Positions 5,140-48,699 of a stretch of DNA of 64,000 nt are shown piece by piece; the stretch's first letter is position 1, and each line of letters starts with the position of its first letter. The DNA comes from Anolis carolinensis. Taxonomy: Eukaryota. The notes under the pieces are model-generated. The model was not told where the DNA came from. It searched no databases and saw nothing but the letters and a program-made list of their open reading frames with translations. Where the stretch lies: assembly GCF_035594765.1 (NCBI RefSeq), contig NC_085846.1, forward strand, positions 20,633,190 through 20,697,189. The letters are read 5' to 3'. Both the position numbers and the translations under genes were made by a program.

Positions 5140-5169
5140 ACAGCAACATTCTCAAACAAGTGGCAGACT

Positions 5170-5324
5170 TGCTGTAAAACATGATGTTTTGGTGCTTAAT
5201 TTGTAAAATCATAACGTAATTTGACGTTTAATAGACTTTTCCTTAATCCCTCCTTATTATCCAACATTTTTTCTTATTCAACATTCTGCAAGCCCATTTA
5301 TGTTGGATAAGCAAGACTCTACTG
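5170..5324. mobile_element. Tc1/mariner MITE, truncated copy of the CAGTAGAGTCTC family
   Basis: Matches the right half of 7465-7787; ends GACTCTACTG followed by TA. Confidence 0.85.
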
Positions 5325-6208: not shown

Positions 6209-7464
6209 TAAACTTGGTTATTGCTTTTATTAGTGCATGAGATATCCACCTTGGCAGTGTTTCTTTGAAGAAACAGGCTAACAATTGCACACAAGTTGCA
6301 GTATCAACTATCATGACAACAACGTGTCTCATTTTTGATCCACTAAATGAAATAGAAGCTTGATCTTGGACATAGAGTAAGGTATTTGTTGCACGTTTTG
6401 GAACATGCTATGCATGAATATTACAGTCTTTGAGTTTGTGTATATATAGTGGGCAAGATCAAATCAAAGTGATATATGGATCTAAGTTTTCCCACTGGGT
6501 TCATGGGACTTTAATAGTTTCCTTTTAACCAGATAGTGCACTTTAGGAATGAGATGTTTTTACTGAGAAGTAAAATATATGAATACCAAAAGTTGCTTAG
6601 ATATCAGAACTATTTTTAAAAGGAAGTACTTAGAAATGTACCCTTGGAATTTTATTGTGAAAAACCAAAAATATATATAGGTACTTGACTGAGTTGTGTA
6701 AAACAAATTCTGAATTTAGACAATGTGGTAAAATGGAATTCAAGAGATATCAGAAGAACAGCACAGTCCTATATTTGCACATTTGATAGTCCAGTTCAGT
6801 TAAGTAAAACTTCGTTCCAGCTAAAAGCATAGGGGATTATAACCTTCTTTGGATTACCCTCTACTAGTGCCTAATGTCCCACTTATGGAAAGTATGAAAT
6901 TCAGAAATTTCCCAGATTTTTCTCCACGTTAAATGTACAGGTTTGTTGTGCCACAGAGAATGAAAATATAATCTGTTTTTATATTGGCAGACGTGGATAT
7001 TGACTTTATATGGTGTTTTTTTTAAGAAAACAACAACAAAAAACTCTTGCCTAGCTATGATTTTTTTTTCTTTATGAACCAATGCATCTTCCTTTTTATG
7101 AATCTTGGAGAATTAAGATCAGGGGGATAAGGTCATAAACAGAAAGGTCTACACAATGATGAAGTCTATACAATGAAGATGAGGTTTATTACTTGCTTCT
7201 AATTCTAGGTAGAATTTAATCTTATATGCTGTTGTACTTGATCCAATTGACTTTATGATCTTCTATTCTTTCACTTACCATATAACTAATAATTATTAAT
7301 ATACTATAGAAATAGTGAGTTCTAGCCTGATTTTCTCTCCCTCACACTTTCTACTCCAACCACTCCCTTTTTGCTTTATAAATAGCCCTGAAAATTTGCT
7401 CACTCTTCACAGTTAAAATACAGATTTTAGAAATTTGCTTATGGACCAGAATCCCATCATTTTA

Positions 7465-7787
7465 CAGTAGAGTCTCACTTATCCAACTCTCACTTATCCA
7501 ACGTTCTGGATTATCCAACACATTTTTATAGTCAATGTTTTCAATACATCGTGATATTTTGGTGCTAAATTCGTAAATACAGTAATTACTACATAGCATT
7601 ACTGCATATTGAACTACTTTTTCTGTCAAATTTGTTGTTAAACATGATGTTTTGGTGCTTAATTTGTAAAATCATAACCTAATTTGATGTGTAATAGGCT
7701 TTTCCTTAATCCCTCCTTATTATCCAACATATTTGATTATCCAACATTCTGCCAGCCCGTTTATGTTGGATAAGTGAGACTCTACTG
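7465..7787. mobile_element. Tc1/mariner-superfamily MITE, full length (323 bp)
   Basis: TIR CAGTAGAGTCTCACTTATCCAAC at both ends, TA target duplication. Confidence 0.95.
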
Positions 7788-7974: not shown

Positions 7975-8916
7975 ATGGATGTGAATAACTTCACAACTGG
8001 AGTTACAAAATTTGTCTTCATGGGGATTTCACAAAATCGAGAATTGGAACTTTTTCTCTTTGTTTTCTTCTTGATGGTATACATGAGTACATGGTTAGGA
8101 AATGTCATCATCATTGTTACTGTAATATTTGATCATCACCTACACATGCCAATGTATTTCTTTCTGGCCAACTTGGCTTTTTTAGATGTTAGTGAATCCT
8201 CAGTTACTGCTCCTAAATTGCTGCAAGTCCTCTTTTCTATGCAGAAAACCATCTCCTTCCATGGATGCTTGACCCAGATGTTCTTTTTTCACTTTATTGG
8301 AGGCACTGTTGTTTTTTTCCTTACGGTGATGGCAGCAGATCGCTTCCTGGCTATTACTAAACCTTTGCAATACACAATCATTATGAAAAAAAATGCATGT
8401 CTAGGGTTCATCATGGGTGCTTGGCTGGGTGGTTTTGTTCATTCCATTGTTCAGTTGGCATTGATAATACAGTTACCATTTTGTGGTCCCAACATATTGG
8501 ATAATTTTTATTGTGATGTTCCACAGGTGGTGAAGTTGGCCTGCACGGACATCTATACAGTTGAGCTCCTTATGGTATCCAACAATGGACTTGTTACCAC
8601 AGGAACATTCATTGTTTTGCTAATTTCATACAGCATTATTCTGTTTAAGATTCGGAACCATGTCTCACAAGGGAAACATAAAGCTCTTTCAACATGTGCT
8701 GCCCAAATGACAGTAGTGAGTTTACACTTTATCCCATGCATCTTTATTTATGACCGTCCTTTTAAGAAATTTAGAGGAGATAAAGCAGTGTCCATTCTCT
8801 ATACGGTTATCACACCAATGCTAAATCCCATCATCTACACACTGAGAAATACAGAGATGAAAAATGCTATTAAAAGGTTAGTGGGCAAAGTGCTGACAAT
8901 TTATCAGAAGGGATGA
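7975..8916 (+). CDS. Olfactory receptor, family 4 (OR4D-like), 313 aa
   Basis: NFT glycosylation site, GN, LHMPMYFFLANL, MAADRFLAITKPL, FYCDVPQVVKLAC, SY, KALSTC, PMLNPIIYTLRN; acceptor TTTTCCATTTCCAG with AG at 7951-7952. Confidence 0.97.
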   Translation: MDVNNFTTGVTKFVFMGISQNRELELFLFVFFLMVYMSTWLGNVIIIVTVIFDHHLHMPMYFFLANLAFLDVSESSVTAPKLLQVLFSMQKTISFHGCLTQMFFFHFIGGTVVFFLTVMAADRFLAITKPLQYTIIMKKNACLGFIMGAWLGGFVHSIVQLALIIQLPFCGPNILDNFYCDVPQVVKLACTDIYTVELLMVSNNGLVTTGTFIVLLISYSIILFKIRNHVSQGKHKALSTCAAQMTVVSLHFIPCIFIYDRPFKKFRGDKAVSILYTVITPMLNPIIYTLRNTEMKNAIKRLVGKVLTIYQKG

Positions 8917-9019
8917 AAACTGTAATTAGGTTTAAAATTGGGATGTGCTTTGATTTTGTAGACTAAGAAATCTGATTTCTTATTAACTTGCTATAATCAT
9001 ATTAGAAATGTGAAAGGTG

Positions 9020-9076
9020 CCTGCTATAGATGCAGGCAAAATGTCAGGAAAGAATGCTTCGGGAATATTGCCATAC
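9020..9076 (+). mobile_element. 57-bp Penelope 3'-end fragment with 13-bp TSD
   Basis: Homologous to 27402-27458; flanked by AATGTGAAAGGTG at 9007-9019 and 9077-9089. Confidence 0.75.
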
Positions 9077-9187
9077 AATGTGAAAGGTGTCTTTAAGAAT
9101 AGCTATCTTCTGTTAAACTGTTTTGTAACCAAACATATTTCTGTGCTACAGACCAGATAAGTTGTAACTATCTATCCGACACATATA

Positions 9188-25188: not shown

Positions 25189-25511
25189 CAGTAGAGTCTC
25201 ACTTATCCAACATAAACGGGCCGGCAGAACATTGGATAAGCGAATATGTTGGATAATAAGGAGAGATTAAGAAAAAGCCTATTAAACATCAACATAGGTT
25301 ATGATTTTACAAATTAAGCACCAAAACATCATGTTAGACAACAAATTTGACAGAAAAAGTAGTTCAATATGCAGTAATGTTATGTTGTAATTACTGTATT
25401 AACAAAATTAGCACCAAAATATCACGTTATATTAAAAACATTGACTACAAAAATGTGTTGGATAATCCAGAACGTTGGATAAGCGAGTGTTGGATAAGTG
25501 AGACTCTACTG
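25189..25511. mobile_element. Tc1/mariner MITE, full length
   Basis: Same TIRs as 7465-7787, opposite orientation, TA TSD. Confidence 0.95.
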
Positions 25512-25908
25512 TATATGTATTTGTAATGAAATCATTATTTTTTGTAGACTTGTTTTCTGAAAACTATTTTTAAAGGTTTTGTTAACAGTTAATTAAATAA
25601 AGCATCCATAAATTTAGATTTCTTTCTAGTTCATCAACACGATGATGAATCAAAGTAGTTAACATGCAAATATGTTACAACTTACAAGTGTTAAAGACAA
25701 TACTTCTCATCATGCTTTTTCCTGAAGGAGAATTGTGGTTCATACTATGTTACTAGTTGAGTCTCCAACTTCCAGAAATCCAAACTTTGCAACACTGACC
25801 ACTATCATAAATTTCACTAGTGGAAAGCAAAGAAGGAGGAATTGACTTATACAGAGACCCCGTTAAAAAAACAACAACAGATGATCAGGAGAGGGGAAAA
25901 TCCAAGTA

Positions 25909-26228
25909 CAGTAGAGTCTCACTTATCCAACTTAAACAGGCTGGCAGAATGTTGGATAAGCAAATATGTTGGATAATAAGGAGGCATTAAGGAAAAGCCT
26001 ATTAAACATCAAATTAGGTTATGATTTTACAAATGAAGCACCAAAACATCATGTTAGACAACAAATTTGGCAGAAAAAGTAGTTCAATACGCAGTAATGC
26101 TATGTAGTAATTACTGTATTTATGAATTTAGCACCAAAATATGATATATTGAAAACATTGACTCCAAAAATGCGTTGGATAATCCAGAACATTGGATAAG
26201 CGAGTGTTGGATAAGTGAGACTCTACTG
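25909..26228. mobile_element. Tc1/mariner MITE, full length
   Basis: Same TIRs, TA TSD. Confidence 0.95.
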
Positions 26229-26230
26229 TA

Positions 26231-26331
26231 GCACCAAAATATCATGATGTATTGAAAACATTGACTACAAAAATGTGTTGGATAATCCAGAACGTTGGAT
26301 AAGCGAATGTTGGATAAGTGAGACTCTACTG
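26231..26331. mobile_element. Additional terminal 101 bp of the same MITE family
   Basis: GCACCAAAATATC...GAGACTCTACTG followed by TA, directly after the full copy. Confidence 0.9.
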
Positions 26332-26796
26332 TACATATGCTACCATAAACATGGGAAATATTTGAATGCTGGCTCTATGCTTTTTATGGGATTCTCAAAT
26401 CTAGCTTCATGAAGGAGAGTATTAACTCAGCAAAATATTCCTCTCAAAAAGGTTTAGCAGAACCTTTCATTCATAATTGGGAAAATTAATTAAGATTCTT
26501 GAGTCTTCAATAGAATTGACCAAAATGGCATTCAAAGTTAGGGTGTTACTCACATGATGTGTTCATGCTTAGTTGTAACCTATGCTGATTTCAGGGTTGA
26601 AGCCTCCAAGACATATAGATATAGATAAAGATACAGATATAGATATATTTATCTCAAGAGGAGGAAAGCCATTTCTAGAGAAGAGCTCCAAAAGCTATAT
26701 TAGCTGTCGGAATTTAAAAATCAACTAAAGACTTATCTCAGCCAGTTTTAAGCATGGATTTTAAACTCATGTCTTGTGTTTAATCTCAGAAAAGAA

Positions 26797-27483
26797 AAGA
26801 AAATCCAACAAATGCTACGATCAGCGAAGGACAAGAGGGATCCTCTCTCTTCTGCAGGAGTCTACCGGATACCATGCAGCTGTGGACAAGTATACAAAGG
26901 GACCACCAAACGCAGCGCCCAAACAAGAGTCAAAGAACATGAAAGGCACTGCAGACTAATTCAACCAGAGAAATCAGCCATAGCAGAGCATTTGATGAAC
27001 CAGCCTGGACACAGGATATTATTTGAGAACACAAAAATGCTGGACCATTCCAACAACTATCATGTCAGACTACACAGAGAAGCCATTGAAATCCACAAGC
27101 ATGTGGACAACTTCAACAGAAAGGAAGAAACCATGAAAATGAACAAAATCTGGCTACCAGTATTACAAAACTCCAAAATCAAAACAGTAGATGGGAACCA
27201 AAACTCTGAGGGCTTGACTGAACAAAGGATGCCCCCAGGCAAGAGACAAAACATTTCCAATGCTAATTAGGGTGATTAACTGAAACATTAATGCTGGCTT
27301 CCCAGTGACAAAGGACTCTTGCCACACCCTGGACTCTACACAGATATATATTCTTTCCTTTCCTTACTTAGTTTATCCATACCTCACAACCTCTGAGGAT
27401 GCCTGCCATAGATGTGGGCGAAACGTCAGGAGAGAATACTTCTGGAACATGGCCACACAGCCCGAAAGACATACAACAACCCT
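26797..27483 (+). mobile_element. Penelope-like (Poseidon-type) retroelement, 5'-truncated: GIY-YIG endonuclease plus 3' UTR
   Basis: GVYRIPCSCGQVYKGTTKR...RVKEH...SAIAEH...REAIEI...FNRKEE (ORF ends 27270); YIG altered to YKG; 3' region shared with 13636, 39296 and 45363 copies. Confidence 0.92.
27383..27434 (+). ncRNA. Minimal type I hammerhead ribozyme, intact core
   Basis: CCT (27390-92), CTGAGGA (27393-99), T, GCCTGC-catagat-GTGGGC helix II, GAAAC GTC (predicted cleavage after C27427), AGG (27428-30) closing helix I. Confidence 0.85.
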
Positions 27484-27899
27484 ACCATCAAATAGCTCAC
27501 CCCAAAACTGCAGAAATGAGACCAAAAAAGTGTGCTTGAAAAAGTTTGAAAGTTATGCAAACTGAAATACAGAATTAGCCATGACCTTTAAAAAAGGCTT
27601 TTCACCTGATGAACTTTCAACATTTATTATTTTTAATGGACAGTAGTAGATCAGCTTGTATAGGTTTAGGGTTGTACATGGTCCCTTAACCAACTGAGCA
27701 AGCATCACTTTCTGTACATATCAGATTTGTGCTAAGGATTGAAAAGACAAGTTATTCTTGCTAAACTAAGTAGTCAGTTCTTCTCATGGTACAATCCTAT
27801 ATTTTTCAGAAACAATGATGCTCTAAGCAATTGAAAACATAGTTCATGTTTTCTTTTTAAAAAACAGGACTTTCCGTATGATTTGATTATGATTCTATT

Positions 27900-28062
27900 G
27901 ACTATGAAAGTCTTCTGGGAATTTTACTTGCATAGGAAAACTCTTGAGGTATAAATTCTCAAAGGTACATTAGCATACATTTTAAAATGAAATGTGAAAT
28001 CAATGCACAGTACACTGCAAATGTAAGAGCATGAAAGAAGATAGGTCCCTTTACAGGTAAGG
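27900..28062 (+). promoter_or_regulatory. Candidate promoter and 5' non-coding exon of OR5V1-like gene
   Basis: Degenerate O/E-like sites (TCTTCTGGGA, ACTCTTGAGG, TCTCAAAGGT); donor CAG|GTAAGG at 28056/28057 that could pair with acceptor at 29385-29386. Confidence 0.45.
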
Positions 28063-28211: not shown

Positions 28212-29424
28212 ATTTAAATAAGCTTTACTCCCCTCTATGATATCCTATCCAGAGTTTTAATTCACATATATTGAGATACTTTTATTTATGTTTGACTGGT
28301 TGTATTTAATTTCCATTGAAATGTAAGAGATGTAATACATGATTTACTTGTCTCACAGTCCCATTATATGATAATGTAAACCATTATCATATAGTTTTTC
28401 CCATTGAAGTCAGTGGGGCATTTCTGCATATGCTGATATAGTACTGTCTTGCCAATCTGGATCCAACATGACTTTTTAATTGCTTCTTTCCTGTCTTCCA
28501 TCCTTATCTGTAAGCAATGCCAACAGCACAACAGAGCAATGGGATGAATGTTGTGCAAAAGGCTGCAGAATAACACATTGTTCTCAATCCAAAAAGAGAT
28601 GCATATATAAACTGCACTTACAAATGCATGTGCCATGCATATAATTCTGTCAAACTGCTCCAAATACACTATTTTAAGGGGTATGGGCATGGGCATGTAA
28701 AGAACTGGTGACATTCAATATATGCTTCATAAATTGTGAAACTAAGTGAGAGACCTGGGTGTTAGGTTCAGATTGTGTACAATCGATAACAGAACAATAC
28801 ACTAGACAAGCCATATTATGGGTGTGACCACATAAAGCATCTTCCCTTGCCTCACCGTGGTACATTTTGGAAAGAAAGCTCCCATCATGCTGGGTTATTT
28901 GCCATGCTGGTTGGAGTTGTTGGGAATTGTAGGCTTATGAAATCATCCTGAAAATAAGATTTTAGTCACTCTTGAGGGAAAAGACCCAAACAGCCACAAT
29001 GAATCAATGTCTCTAGCAACTTCTGTAGAATATTCTTCCAAATTGATCTCAACTGCGATACAAAGCTGCAAAATATGAAGTACTGAACTGTGTGTTATGT
29101 TCTTTCATGTATTTACAAATTATGGTGAGGCTTTGGTATATTCCTGCAGCACTGAGAGACACTGGCAAAACTTAGTGCACTAAATCTAACTTATATTACT
29201 ATTATGTATGGATTCAGCTCTTTCTGTTTGCTACAGTGCCTATCAGAACAAAGAGCAATAAATACTTGCAAGCAAACTTTTTGTGGCAAAATTACCCCAA
29301 TCCTTTAATTGATAGCAGCCTGCAGGATTTATGGAGTATCTGATAATTTTGAGACTACTTTGATGTATTGTATCTTTTTCTTACAGACAAAAAAAAAAAT
29401 CTGACAGCTGGTTGGGGATTAGAT

Positions 29425-30351
29425 ATGAAGGTACATAACCAAACAGTATTTTCTGAGTTCATCATTCTTGGCTTTCAAGATCTGCAGGAGCTACACCTCT
29501 TACTCTTCAGTGGATTCTTGACCATTTATTTATTCACAGTGCTGTGGAATGCCTTCATTATCACAATGGCCACATTGGATCAGCGACTCAGAACTCCCAT
29601 GTACTTCTTTCTTGGGAACCTCTCTGTTCTTGATATCTGCTACACTACTACTACTATTCCTCCGATGATGAGTCTCCTTCTCACACAGAGAAACAGCATC
29701 TCTTATATAGGTTGTCTGCTTCAACTGTATTTCTTTTTTTCCTTTGTAGGCACTGAATGCCTGCTTCTGGCAGTTATGGCCTTTGACCGATATGTTGCCA
29801 TTTGCAAACCTTTGCATTATCCACTGGTTATCAGAAGAAAATTTTGCCTTCAGCTAGCTACTCTATGTTGGGCTAGCGGTTTCTTCAACTCTGCAATACA
29901 CACATGTTTTGCCTTCAGGTTACCTTTCTGTAATGACAATCGCCTTGATGCTTTCTACTGTGACATCCCTCCTCTGCTAAAACTGTCCTGTGGAGACATT
30001 ACCCTCAATCAAAGGCTTTTGCTATTCATTGGCCTGTTCATAGCTTGGACACCCCTTTTTTGTATTCTTCTATCATATGCTTACATCATTTCAACTGTCT
30101 TGAAAATACGCTCCACAGAAGGGAGACAAAAAGCTTTCTCCACCTGCTCTTCTCATCTCACTGTGGTTCTCTTGTATTATGGCAGTTGCATTTTCACATA
30201 TTTAAGACCAATTTCTTCTCAGTCATCAGTGAATGCAAAGCTCATCCCACTAATGTATAGTATCTTGACACCTTTGTTAAATCCAGTCATATATACCTTG
30301 CGCAACAAGGATGTGAAGAAAGCTTTCCAAAGTGCAATGGGAAAAATTTGA
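29425..30351 (+). CDS. OR5V1: Olfactory receptor, OR5V1-like, 308 aa
   Basis: ATG at 29425 (MKVHNQT; ORF-track TTG at 29368 lies upstream of acceptor AG 29385-29386). EFIILGF, FVGTECLLLA, CWASGFFNS, CDIPPLLKLSCG, FIAWTP, IFTYLRPIS, TLRNKD match remembered human OR5V1. Confidence 0.93.
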   Translation: MKVHNQTVFSEFIILGFQDLQELHLLLFSGFLTIYLFTVLWNAFIITMATLDQRLRTPMYFFLGNLSVLDICYTTTTIPPMMSLLLTQRNSISYIGCLLQLYFFFSFVGTECLLLAVMAFDRYVAICKPLHYPLVIRRKFCLQLATLCWASGFFNSAIHTCFAFRLPFCNDNRLDAFYCDIPPLLKLSCGDITLNQRLLLFIGLFIAWTPLFCILLSYAYIISTVLKIRSTEGRQKAFSTCSSHLTVVLLYYGSCIFTYLRPISSQSSVNAKLIPLMYSILTPLLNPVIYTLRNKDVKKAFQSAMGKI

Positions 30352-38578: not shown

Positions 38579-39295
38579 GGAGTCTAATATTTATTGTTTT
38601 ATGACTGTCTTTTATTTTTTGATGTCAAAAATCATACAGCACACCAAATCTACTACAAGGAACAACAGGGCCTTTAAAGTTCTCCTGGACATGGGTCTGA
38701 GAACATAAATAGGTCACATGGTTAGAGTTATGTTCATTATTGTGAGATGTCCTGGGATATATGTCCACATACTATAATGTTTCTTACCGCCATAGACTTC
38801 CTGTAATGTTGAAAAAGTTTTCTTGGGATTTTCCAAGTGTGGAATCTCAGGACTTCACCCTGAGAATTAGTCTAATGGAAAAGTGATAGTTCAGGGGGGC
38901 AGGGGGAGGGGCTATCCAGATTAGAGCTTGAAAAGATACTTAAAAGATTTAATGCAATGGCTGCAAATATCAGTTTTTACTATTACAATTGTTCAAAAGT
39001 AACATTTATTCTGTTCCTCACTTTAGTTACTTCTGAAAAAAACTCCTCAGGAAGTAGCACAAATATAGCATGTGCTTGTTTTTCAACTGTGTGATATTTA
39101 TCCACCACCAATCAGTGCAGCCACAAAATCGTGGCAATAAAATTAGGTAAAAGTCAAAGATGCATTGCAAAAGGAACAAAGTTCTTTTCTCTCAACCACT
39201 ATCATTTAACTTAGCTGTACCTTTGCCATTGCAAGAGGAAATTAATTGCTCCCAAGCTATTCCTATGGCACAATCCATCAAACTGTTGGTCACAG

Positions 39296-39412
39296 GGTTG
39301 TTGTATGTCTTTCGGGCTGTGTGGCCATGTTCCAGAAGTATTCATGGCCACAGAGCCCGAAAGACATACAAGAACCCTGTGATCCCGGCCATGAAAGCCT
39401 TCGACAACACAT
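39296..39412. mobile_element. Short palindromic Penelope 3'-end insertion
   Basis: About 40-bp inverted arms around TTCCAGAAGTATT; flanked by TGTTGGTCACAG at 39284-39295 and 39413-39424. Confidence 0.85.
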
Positions 39413-39452
39413 TGTTGGTCACAGATTCTCATGCCAACTTTGAATTTGTCTT

Positions 39453-43104: not shown

Positions 43105-44025
43105 TTATTTTTTCCCAAATAGTTTCCCAAGTGCTCTCTTCACTTCTTTATTTTTCAAACTGTAAATAATTGGATTCAGCATAGGAGTCAAAATGCTATA
43201 CTGAACAGAAAAAAGTTCATCCACCACTACTGAAGAGATGCTGCTGGGTTTCATGTACTGGGACATTCCTGTCATATAGAGTAAACCAACCACGGTCAGG
43301 TGAGAACTACAGGTAGAGAAAGCTTTGCTTCGTCCCTCTGTTGAGCGGATCTTCAAAATGGTGGAAATGATGTGAATGTAGGAGATCAAGGTTGGTAGAA
43401 AGGAACCAAGCCCAAAAATTACAACAGAGGAATAAAGGATTATATTATTGAGGAAGGTGTCAGAACAAGATATTTTCAACAATGGCGGGAGTTCACAGCT
43501 GAAGTGCCTGATTTCATGAAAGCCACAGAACTGTACTTTGAATATAGGCACTGCATTTATTACTGCAAAAGACAAGCCCATTAGCCATGAGCCCATCAGC
43601 AGGTAACTGCATACTGATTTGCTCATGACCACTACATAGTGAAGTGGATGACACACAGCAGTGTATCTGTCATAAGCCATTGCTGAAAGGATAAACACTT
43701 CTGTAACACTCAAGAGAAGGCTGAAAAACATCTGTGTAAGGCAGCCAGTGGAGGAGATAGTCTTTTGCTTCATAAGCAAGTTTGCCAACATCTTAGGAAC
43801 AATATCAGTAGAATAACAGATGTCAACAAAAGACAAATGAGAGAGAAAATAATACATTGGTGAGTAAAGAGAAGGGTCTGTTTTAATCACTAGGATGATT
43901 GTGATGTTTCCGGAGAGTGTTATGAAATAAATGGTAAAAAATATTACAAAGAAAAAGATCTGCAGCTGAGGATCACTAGAAAGTCCCAAGAAAATAAACT
44001 CTGATCTATCAGTTTGGTTTTCCAT
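43105..44025 (-). CDS. Olfactory receptor, OR8S1/OR5BS-like, 306 aa
   Basis: NQT, GN, PMYYFLSHLSFVD, LSAMAYDRY, HFSCELP, GRSKAFSTCSSHL, diagnostic FSVQY and YSLKNKEVK; acceptor AG at 44041-44040. Confidence 0.95.
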   Translation of the reverse strand: MENQTDRSEFIFLGLSSDPQLQIFFFVIFFTIYFITLSGNITIILVIKTDPSLYSPMYYFLSHLSFVDICYSTDIVPKMLANLLMKQKTISSTGCLTQMFFSLLLSVTEVFILSAMAYDRYTAVCHPLHYVVVMSKSVCSYLLMGSWLMGLSFAVINAVPIFKVQFCGFHEIRHFSCELPPLLKISCSDTFLNNIILYSSVVIFGLGSFLPTLISYIHIISTILKIRSTEGRSKAFSTCSSHLTVVGLLYMTGMSQYMKPSSISSVVVDELFSVQYSILTPMLNPIIYSLKNKEVKRALGKLFGKK

Positions 44026-45362: not shown

Positions 45363-45574
45363 ATTAATACATTAAACATTAAACATTAATGCTGGCTCCC
45401 AGTGACAAAGAACTCTTGCCACACCTTGGACTATACACAGATATATATTCTTTCCTTTCCTTACTTAATTTATCCATACCTCACAACCTCTGAGGATGCC
45501 TGCCATAGATGTGGGTGAAACGTCAGGAGAGAATGCTTCTGGAACATGGCCACACAGCCCGAAAGACATACAAC
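45363..45574 (+). mobile_element. Penelope 3'-end fragment with 15-bp TSD
   Basis: Near-identical to 27284-27480; TSD AACACTATTAAGAAC at 45348-45362 and 45575-45589; (ACATTAA)n slippage at 5' junction. Confidence 0.92.
45480..45531 (+). ncRNA. Hammerhead ribozyme motif (Penelope-borne), G-U at base of helix II
   Basis: CCT CTGAGGA (45490-96) T GCCTGC catagat GTGGGT GAAAC GTC (45522-24) AGG. Confidence 0.7.
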
Positions 45575-45699
45575 AACACTATTAAGAACTATTCTGCATC
45601 AGATTTTCCAATGAAAATGTATAGCCCCACGGGTGGGGTTACACATATTTTGAGTATCTTGCATGAGTATTCTCCTTATTGTTGAATTTCAATCAATTT

Positions 45700-48172: not shown

Positions 48173-48376
48173 TATTGTCAGAACAAATATGACTGATATT
48201 GAATAAATCATACTTAATCATATTATCAGCCCCTGCTCTTGGTGACAGCACTTAAGGGGTGCCTATAGGTCTTAGCAGGTTATCACCCTGAAATCTCTGT
48301 TTGTGATTATCCTAGTCTGGTAATGCTAGTAGACATACGCAACACTGCACAGATGTGTGTGTGCTCAGCACACATA

Positions 48377-48699
48377 CAGTAGAGTCTCACTTATCCAACA
48401 CTCACTTATCCAACGTTCTGGATTATCCAACGCATTTTTGTAGTCAATGTTTTCAATATATCGTGATATTTTGATGCTAAATTCGTAAATACAGTAATTA
48501 CTACGTAGCGTTACTGTGTATTGAACTACTTTTTCTATCAAATTTGTTGTATAACATGATGTTTTGGTGCTTAATTTGTAAAATCATAACCTAATTTAAT
48601 GTTTAATAGGCTTTTCCTTAACCTCTCCTTATTATCCAACATATTCGCTTATCCAACGTTCTCCTGGCCCGTTTATGTTGGATAAGTGAGACTGTACTG
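48377..48699. mobile_element. Tc1/mariner MITE, full length
   Basis: Same TIRs (one mismatch), TA TSD. Confidence 0.95.

What the first reader, a model, noticed from the sequence alone, without database searches (positions are those of the whole stretch)
27383..27434. Intact hammerhead ribozyme core about 0.5 kb upstream of an OR promoter candidate, same strand
Seen: all conserved hammerhead nucleotides (CUGAGGA, GAAA, GUC), a 6-bp helix II, CCU/AGG helix I extendable by CUC/GAG, and a vestigial palindromic helix III (ACGU). Established: Penelope-like elements carry minimal type I hammerheads, which generally cleave best as dimers. Inference: a self-cleaving RNA spread through an OR cluster could cut read-through transcripts entering the OR5V1-like promoter, and copies could pair in trans.
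Basis: partly seen in the sequence, partly recalled or inferred. Interest (0 to 1): 0.7.

Follow-up and report, generated by a model that had tools for sequence, protein, structure and literature searches.

The report
Known lizard retrotransposon hammerhead, passenger copy
The self-cutting RNA motif is real, but it is the end of a truncated copy of a known lizard jumping gene with about 8,700 identical copies in this genome, and it is likely a silent passenger beside the smell-receptor gene, not a regulator of it.

Summary
The hammerhead core is present as described at 27383-27434. It lies in the 3' pseudo-LTR of a 687-bp, 5'-truncated Penelope-like element (26797-27483). It matches a full-length genomic copy at 57 of 57 bases and, by eye, the tested hammerhead of Poseidon_Ac/PAc (PMC11167929). 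That paper found no cleavage without the element's protein, and no RNA-seq reads ending at the cut site.

The 53-mer occurs 8,726 times exactly in this genome. The olfactory-receptor (OR) cluster is not enriched: 4 exact 22-mers in 464 kb against 10.1 expected. Orientation to ORs is 14 sense to 13 antisense, and 3 of 4 full-core sense copies upstream of ORs are broken.

The adjacent upstream gene points away, so there is no obvious read-through to cut. The copy stops at +85 of the element's ORF, short of the 172 nt where protein binding is proposed. Its core is predicted to be locked in a rival hairpin.

Verdict: real, already known, likely inert here. Expression could not be tested. The scan noted this family earlier elsewhere in this genome.

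The parts
26797..27483 (+). 5'-truncated Poseidon (PAc-type) Penelope-like retroelement copy, 687 bp, tail-less 3' end at +85 of the element ORF
   Evidence: blastn against 30 genomic copies and alignment to full-length copy L083; no target-site duplication at the junctions
26797..27270 (+). C-terminal remnant of the RT-endonuclease ORF (GIY-YIG region; ORF from an internal Met at 26812); second motif reads YKG where intact copies read YIG
   Evidence: 363 of 369 nt identical to L083 over 26797-27165; Pfam finds RVT_1 in the 846-aa L083 protein (E 1.7e-13) and no family in this fragment, so the GIY-YIG label rests on the motif and on PMC11167929
27255..27483 (+). 3' pseudo-LTR (start approximate); its upstream part is a subfamily variant
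   Evidence: 69 of 82 aligned bases identical to L083 over 27271-27377, against 57 of 57 over 27378-27434 and 48 of 49 over 27435-27483
27383..27434 (+). Minimal type I hammerhead (the finding); predicted cut after C27427
   Evidence: identical by eye to the PAc RNA template printed in PMC11167929
27399..27401 (+). ATG that starts the element's ORF in tandem copies; it overlaps A9 of the catalytic core
   Evidence: L083 ORF starts at the homologous ATG, 846 aa; PMC11167929
27382..27398 (+). Predicted rival hairpin that pairs U4-G8 of the core with the distal helix I strand
   Evidence: pair probability 0.77-0.97 in three longer contexts (146-601 nt), 0.05 in the 63-nt minimal fold; MFE
27911..28056 (+). 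OR promoter and first non-coding exon candidate (TATAAA at 27950, predicted donor at 28057); sequence-only
   Evidence: motifs recalled; the strict O/E pattern had 0 matches
29425..30351 (+). Intact olfactory receptor ORF, 308 aa
   Evidence: Pfam 7tm_4 E 2.2e-50
20926..21864 (-). Nearest OR on the upstream side, transcribed away from the finding (divergent pair)

Best explanation
This is the hammerhead in the 3' pseudo-LTR of a young, 5'-truncated Poseidon (PAc-type) Penelope-like retrotransposon copy that likely landed beside the OR gene by chance and is likely inactive there. Shown: element identity, boundaries, copy number, and lack of enrichment or orientation bias in the OR cluster. How it arose (inferred from PMC11167929): the element's protein nicked AT-rich DNA and began reverse transcription inside its own RNA, at the first of two AC-rich start sites (+85 here). 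It copied back through the hammerhead, the pseudo-LTR and the end of the endonuclease sequence, then stopped after 687 nt. Almost every insertion therefore carries the hammerhead, which explains the tens of thousands of copies. How the ribozyme works: in full-length element RNA it is a minimal hammerhead that cut in vitro only with the element's protein present (published). In this copy the core is predicted to be sequestered. The copy lacks +86 to +172 of the region where the authors propose the protein binds, and it has no tandem partner. Its perfect sequence likely reflects youth, not selection.
For: 57 of 57 nt identical to full-length L083, whose 846-aa ORF has an RT domain. L083 from the hammerhead to +235 reads the same, by eye, as the RNA template in PMC11167929. 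40,218 exact 22-mers (20,190 forward, 20,028 reverse; control 0) and 8,726 exact 53-mers genome-wide. 3 in the window against 1.39 expected, P=0.16; 4 in 464 kb with 52 OR loci against 10.1 expected, P(<=4)=0.028. At that density 1.2 of 52 ORs would have a same-strand 22-mer within 2.1 kb upstream by chance. Of 27 homologous pieces in the cluster, 14 are sense and 13 antisense to the nearest OR; 4 of 14 that span the whole core keep it intact; 3 of 4 sense, upstream, full-core copies are broken. Among the first 50 copies on C1 that hold the 22-mer, 22 are intact and G12 is changed to A, at a CpG, in 10. Their 3' ends cluster at +82 to +87 (19 of 50) and +116 to +123 (16 of 50); none passes +123. 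Nearest relatives are 97.4-98.8% identical. Active-like monomer fold costs 5.9-13.3 kcal/mol. No cleavage without protein, and no RNA-seq ends at the cut site, for PAc.
Against: This copy's core is perfect and it is the only intact, sense, 5' copy among the 52 OR loci. The 172-nt requirement in the paper was measured for the insertion reaction, not for hammerhead cleavage, and the binding site is the authors' hypothesis, so a +85 copy could still be cut. Nearest-neighbour folding ignores tertiary contacts, Mg2+ and chaperones, and it would also call the protein-assisted parent inactive. The 50-copy sample is the first 50 on one contig and was chosen for an exact 5' half. The depletion P value is modest and compares one cluster with a genome mean. 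One paper reports that RNA downstream of an efficient hammerhead cut is degraded by 5'-3' exonucleases. Transcription across this site was not measured.
Confidence: 0.9

Rival explanations
1. One reading: the hammerhead has been co-opted to cut read-through RNA entering the OR promoter, as a monomer or by pairing in trans with other copies.
For: Intact core, sense to the OR, 523 nt before a TATA candidate. A nested active dimer can be drawn and is stable against unfolded strands (-19.9 kcal/mol). Dimers of a Schistosoma minimal hammerhead showed low activity. RNA downstream of a hammerhead cut can be degraded 5'-3'.
Against: No enrichment or orientation bias. The nearest upstream same-strand OR ends at 8916, 18.5 kb away, behind two opposite-strand ORs. 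The nearest same-strand copy with an intact core is 18 kb downstream, beyond the OR. The inactive dimer is 13.7 kcal/mol more stable than the active one. The identical ribozyme needs protein. Polymerase II passed two cleaving hammerheads and expressed the downstream reporter, induced 56-fold.
Confidence: 0.03
2. The element affects the OR, if at all, as a sense-oriented promoter: its pseudo-LTR would start RNA that runs through the hammerhead toward the OR promoter, making it a source of read-through and not a block.
For: [quoted passage not shown] The copy keeps the whole pLTR in sense orientation.
Against: CpG decay across the family suggests methylation and silencing (inference). Nothing here shows a start site.
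Confidence: 0.06
3. The motif is a chance match or an assembly artefact.
For: Rfam does not call it.
Against: 0.02 expected by chance; 8,726 identical copies; tested catalytic mutants C3G and G8C in the parent element.
Confidence: 0.01

Closest known systems
PAc hammerhead, Poseidon_Ac of Anolis carolinensis (Frangieh et al. 2024, PMC11167929; read parts 1-3 of 4; supplement text searched with 0 hits, figure S2 and the GenBank file not readable)
   Same: Hammerhead letters identical by eye; ORF ATG at the start of stem II; cut site 26 nt after the start codon; 3' end at an AC-rich site one tail-length before the +111-118 RT start; endonuclease DNA 363 of 369 identical to an intact genomic copy
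   Different: This copy is a 687-bp 5'-truncated single unit with no RT; it ends at +85 (tested RNA ran -126 to +235); the upstream pseudo-LTR and ORF tail belong to a variant subfamily; YIG reads YKG
Minimal type I hammerheads of metazoan PLE pseudo-LTRs (Cervera and De la Pena 2014, PMC4209133; read parts 1-2 of 4)
   Same: Long helix II, short helix I, extra base between 9 and 10.1, G10.1-C11.1 pair, palindromic 15.2-16.2; most copies are single and tied to truncated elements; reported in reptiles
   Different: Nothing structural; that paper tested Schistosoma, Drosophila and fungal motifs, not this one
Human OR4K15 ribozyme (PMC11620745; passages only)
   Same: A self-cleaving motif at an olfactory receptor locus, with no shown function
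   Different: Twister-sister-like fold, antisense within the OR coding region, 4 homologues; here a hammerhead, sense, upstream, inside a high-copy transposon
Non-LTR retrozymes (bioRxiv 10.64898/2026.07.22.740005; abstract only)
   Same: Hammerhead-bearing derivatives of PLE pseudo-LTRs in vertebrates
   Different: Retrozymes are tandem arrays that allow dimers in cis; this copy is single and keeps endonuclease sequence

Membership tests
Type I minimal hammerhead ribozyme | Conserved core C3-A9, G12-A15.1, U16.1 and H17 with helices I and II | tested here: met
Type I minimal hammerhead ribozyme | Extra base at 9/10.1, G10.1-C11.1 pair, palindromic vestigial helix III | tested here: met
   U27400, G27401-C27419, ACGU 27423-27426; features as listed in PMC4209133
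Type I minimal hammerhead ribozyme | Self-cleavage after H17 | not testable with these tools
   Published for the identical core in a -126/+235 RNA, only with protein; untested for this truncated copy
Rfam hammerhead families | Covariance-model score at the gathering threshold | tested here: not met
   0 hits at gathering; no hammerhead at E<=10. It is not a member of a curated Rfam family by score, likely because helix III is missing
Penelope-like element, Poseidon/PAc family | Single ORF with RT and C-terminal GIY-YIG endonuclease in full-length relatives | tested here: met
   867-codon open frames at 2,664-bp tandem spacing in L083; RVT_1 E 1.7e-13. GIY-YIG seen as a motif only; Pfam did not call it
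Penelope-like element, Poseidon/PAc family | Tandem or inverted pseudo-LTRs holding the hammerhead | tested here: met
   13 identical hammerheads at unit ends in L083-L086, in tandem and inverted
Penelope-like element, Poseidon/PAc family | Two 3' end classes, with and without the 30-40 bp tail | tested here: met
   19 of 50 copies end at +82 to +87, 16 of 50 at +116 to +123, 15 elsewhere, some through indels in an ungapped comparison; this copy ends at +85
Penelope-like element, Poseidon/PAc family | Sequence identity to Poseidon_Ac | tested here: met
   By-eye comparison; not computed, because the paper's sequence was not held as a locus
Autonomous, active PLE copy | Full ORF flanked by pseudo-LTRs | tested here: not met
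   Only the last 687 bp are present
Non-LTR retrozyme | Tandem hammerhead-bearing monomers | tested here: not met
   Single copy; the next copies with an intact core are 13.7 kb and 18.1 kb away
Host-domesticated regulatory ribozyme | Enrichment, orientation bias or selective retention at target genes | tested here: not met
Host-domesticated regulatory ribozyme | Conserved at the orthologous site across species, transcribed and cleaved in vivo | not testable with these tools
   No relatives' genomes are held; no raw RNA reads were available

The most novel reading that the evidence does not exclude
Because the PAc hammerhead is switched on by the element's own protein, the roughly 8,700 identical genomic copies could act as protein-gated cut sites in host RNA whenever Poseidon is expressed. 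This copy would then cut RNA approaching the OR promoter and tie receptor expression to transposon activity.
Probability: 0.03. Interest if true: 0.7.

Novelty: already known. Interest (0 to 1): 0.07.

Why it matters
As it stands it matters little: it is one of thousands of identical copies of a ribozyme already described and tested. It is a useful warning that 'intact ribozyme near gene X' is the null expectation in this genome, with one exact 22-mer every 46 kb. If truncated copies proved cleavable by the element's protein in trans, a transposon protein would control thousands of cut sites in host transcripts. That would be new and testable, though nothing singles out this locus.

Tried and rejected
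Rfam: no hammerhead call; the four weak hits (SCARNA7 on a TG repeat, IS009, mir-9437, MS2) are far below their gathering scores and were rejected.

Pfam on the endonuclease fragment: 0 families.

Expression: no RNA holder listed. Four runs guessed to be RNA (X17-X20, contigs only) gave patchy low-depth pieces over predicted intron and exon alike, and no joints. One X17 piece spans 27461-27679 with only 23 letters inside the element, under the 31 needed. No conclusion on transcription, splicing or cleavage.

Presence or absence of the insertion: in four runs of four studies (X2, X3, X12, X14) the right-flank contig begins at 27464, only 20 letters inside the element. None of the 15 joints shown (of 135) skips the element. 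Inconclusive.

Target-site duplication: the longest word shared by the two flanks is a 6-mer 28 nt from the 3' junction; rejected.

Co-duplication with OR paralogues, which could have given an empty site: the tested flank stretches are unique in 464 kb and the closest OR there is 48% identical.

Two fold-back copies lying 0.7-0.8 kb behind OR stop codons share no flank, so they are independent insertions.

Paper searches were for context. One search (self-cleaving ribozyme + olfactory receptor + retrotransposon) listed 3 papers; none has a title or abstract start about PLE hammerheads at OR genes. This is a limited search of an open-access library.

The search of earlier findings near this place: nothing.

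Full report
Observation. There is also an extra U at 27400. A hammerhead pattern matches 3 times in the window against 0.02 expected from 100 shuffles. Rfam does not call it, and the 81-nt region is not unusually stable (z -0.84). The OR ORF on the same strand starts at 29425. A TATAAA at 27950, a donor at 28057 and an acceptor at 29386 make a plausible but unconfirmed promoter and 5' intron (motifs recalled).

What it is. An ORF at 26812-27270 just upstream is the C-terminal end of a retroelement protein. A search of the own genome gave 29,940 candidates; the 150 scored are 99-100% identical, several in 867-codon frames. Four such regions (L083-L086) show tandem and inverted units with 13 identical hammerheads at their ends. 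The 846-aa protein from L083 has an RT domain. The window copy aligns to L083 from 26797 to 27483: 363 of 369 over the endonuclease part, 69 of 82 aligned bases over the upstream pseudo-LTR, 57 of 57 over the hammerhead, and 48 of 49 after it. Blastn against 30 genomic copies gives the same limits. L083 from the hammerhead to +235 reads the same, by eye, as the RNA template of PAc (Poseidon_Ac, green anole) printed in PMC11167929; upstream it differs by one substitution and a 3-nt gap. The genome is therefore likely an anole's (inference). The finding is the hammerhead of a 687-bp 5'-truncated PAc-type copy.

What is published for this ribozyme. In PMC11167929 (parts 1-3 of 4 read) the ORF begins at stem II and the cut lies 26 nt after the start codon, which is C27427 here. 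C3G and G8C mutants abolish cleavage. There is no cleavage without PAc protein. Cleavage is not needed for insertion in vitro. No RNA-seq reads began or ended at the site. Reverse transcription starts at two internal sites, which bound an optional 30-40 bp tail. The insertion reaction needs the first 172 nt of the ORF, where the authors suppose the protein binds. PMC4209133 (parts 1-2 of 4) describes the same minimal architecture across metazoan PLEs, mostly as single copies tied to truncated elements; a Schistosoma monomer was inactive and its dimers weakly active. The supplements of PMC11167929 gave no usable text; figure S2 and the consensus file could refine the end positions.

Is it special to ORs? 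No. The 22-mer 27393-27414 occurs 40,218 times in 1.85 Gb with no strand bias (P=0.42). The 53-mer 27382-27434 occurs 8,726 times. Three in 64 kb is within chance (1.39 expected, P=0.16). In the 464 kb around the window, with 52 OR loci, there are 4 where 10.1 are expected. By chance 1.2 of 52 ORs would have a same-strand copy within 2.1 kb upstream. Of 27 homologous pieces there, 14 are sense and 13 antisense to the nearest OR. Fourteen span the full core and 4 keep it. Of the four sense, upstream, full-core copies (2.0-2.5 kb from an OR start), only this one is intact.

Why is this copy perfect? It is young: its nearest relatives among the fetched copies are 97.4-98.8% identical. The family decays at its CpGs. 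Among the first 50 copies on C1 that hold the 22-mer, 22 are intact, G12 is A in 10 and the palindrome is kept in 34. Summed contig depth in four runs shows the same four CpG positions changed in 12-33%. This looks like decay after insertion (inference). The 3' ends of the 50 cluster at +82 to +87 (19) and +116 to +123 (16), fitting two RT start sites; the other 15 end elsewhere, partly an effect of the ungapped comparison; none passes +123. This copy ends at +85.

Could it cut here? ViennaRNA puts the active-like monomer 5.9 kcal/mol above the ensemble in a 63-nt fragment and 9.9-13.3 above in 146-601 nt contexts, where a hairpin at 27382-27398 ties up the core with probability 0.77-0.97. The active dimer scores -19.9 against -33.6 for the best dimer and -28.8 for two monomers. 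These are secondary-structure estimates and cannot model protein help. There is no tandem partner in cis. The upstream neighbour (20926-21864) is on the minus strand and points away; the nearest upstream plus-strand OR ends at 8916. A cut would also not obviously stop a polymerase. A reporter downstream of two cleaving hammerheads was still induced 56-fold (PMC2702688, passages).

What stays open. Transcription across the site, the promoter, the presence of the insertion in other individuals and species, and cleavage of a copy truncated at +85 are all untested. The paper's 172-nt limit was for insertion, not for cleavage.

Verdict. The regulatory inference is not supported. It is an already known ribozyme in an ordinary truncated insertion. 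Earlier notes of this scan reached the same reading for other copies in this genome; I had found the paper and the counts before seeing them, and they are not independent support. Interest 0.07.

Noticed in passing
window 13635-13850; and about 95.5-95.7 kb upstream of the window start (G000:C6 near 20,537,500): Two independent fold-back Poseidon stubs, each with a core-intact hammerhead in sense orientation 0.7-0.8 kb behind an OR stop codon, possibly within 3' UTRs. The one at 13635-13740 has a weakened helix II (5 of 6 pairs). These would be better placed than the finding to cut an OR mRNA, but fold-back pairing likely locks them.
   Followed up: partly
window 45381-45581 (+): Another pseudo-LTR copy, 96% identical to the finding's, with C11.1 changed to U; antisense and 1.5 kb upstream of the OR at 43105-44025.
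   Followed up: partly
window 39290-39414: Tiny head-to-head Poseidon stub that lacks the hammerhead.
   Followed up: partly
window 9018-9077 (+): Old, decayed partial hammerhead homologue about 100 bp behind the stop of the OR at 7975-8916.
   Followed up: no
G000:C1:1063388-1063880 (L112), G000:C1:2664324-2664884, and L011 2118-3205: Head-to-tail arrays of short hammerhead-bearing units (periods 220, 173 and about 150 bp). These retrozyme-like arrays could form dimers in cis and are better candidates for real cleavage than single copies.
   Followed up: no
window 27166-27377 against L083: The ORF tail and upstream pseudo-LTR differ strongly between subfamilies, with several gaps, while the endonuclease part (98%) and hammerhead (100%) are nearly the same. 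This suggests element-level constraint or recombination between subfamilies; the hammerhead's overlap with the ORF start confounds the two.
   Followed up: partly
window 26000-26341, with relatives at 5161-5233, 7463-7696, 25280-25516 and 48367-48608: A different dispersed repeat with an internal duplication of about 105 bp; not identified.
   Followed up: no
G000:C6:20,433,190-20,897,189: The window lies in a cluster of at least 52 OR loci in 464 kb; the OR at 29425 has no close paralogue there (best 48% identity).
   Followed up: partly
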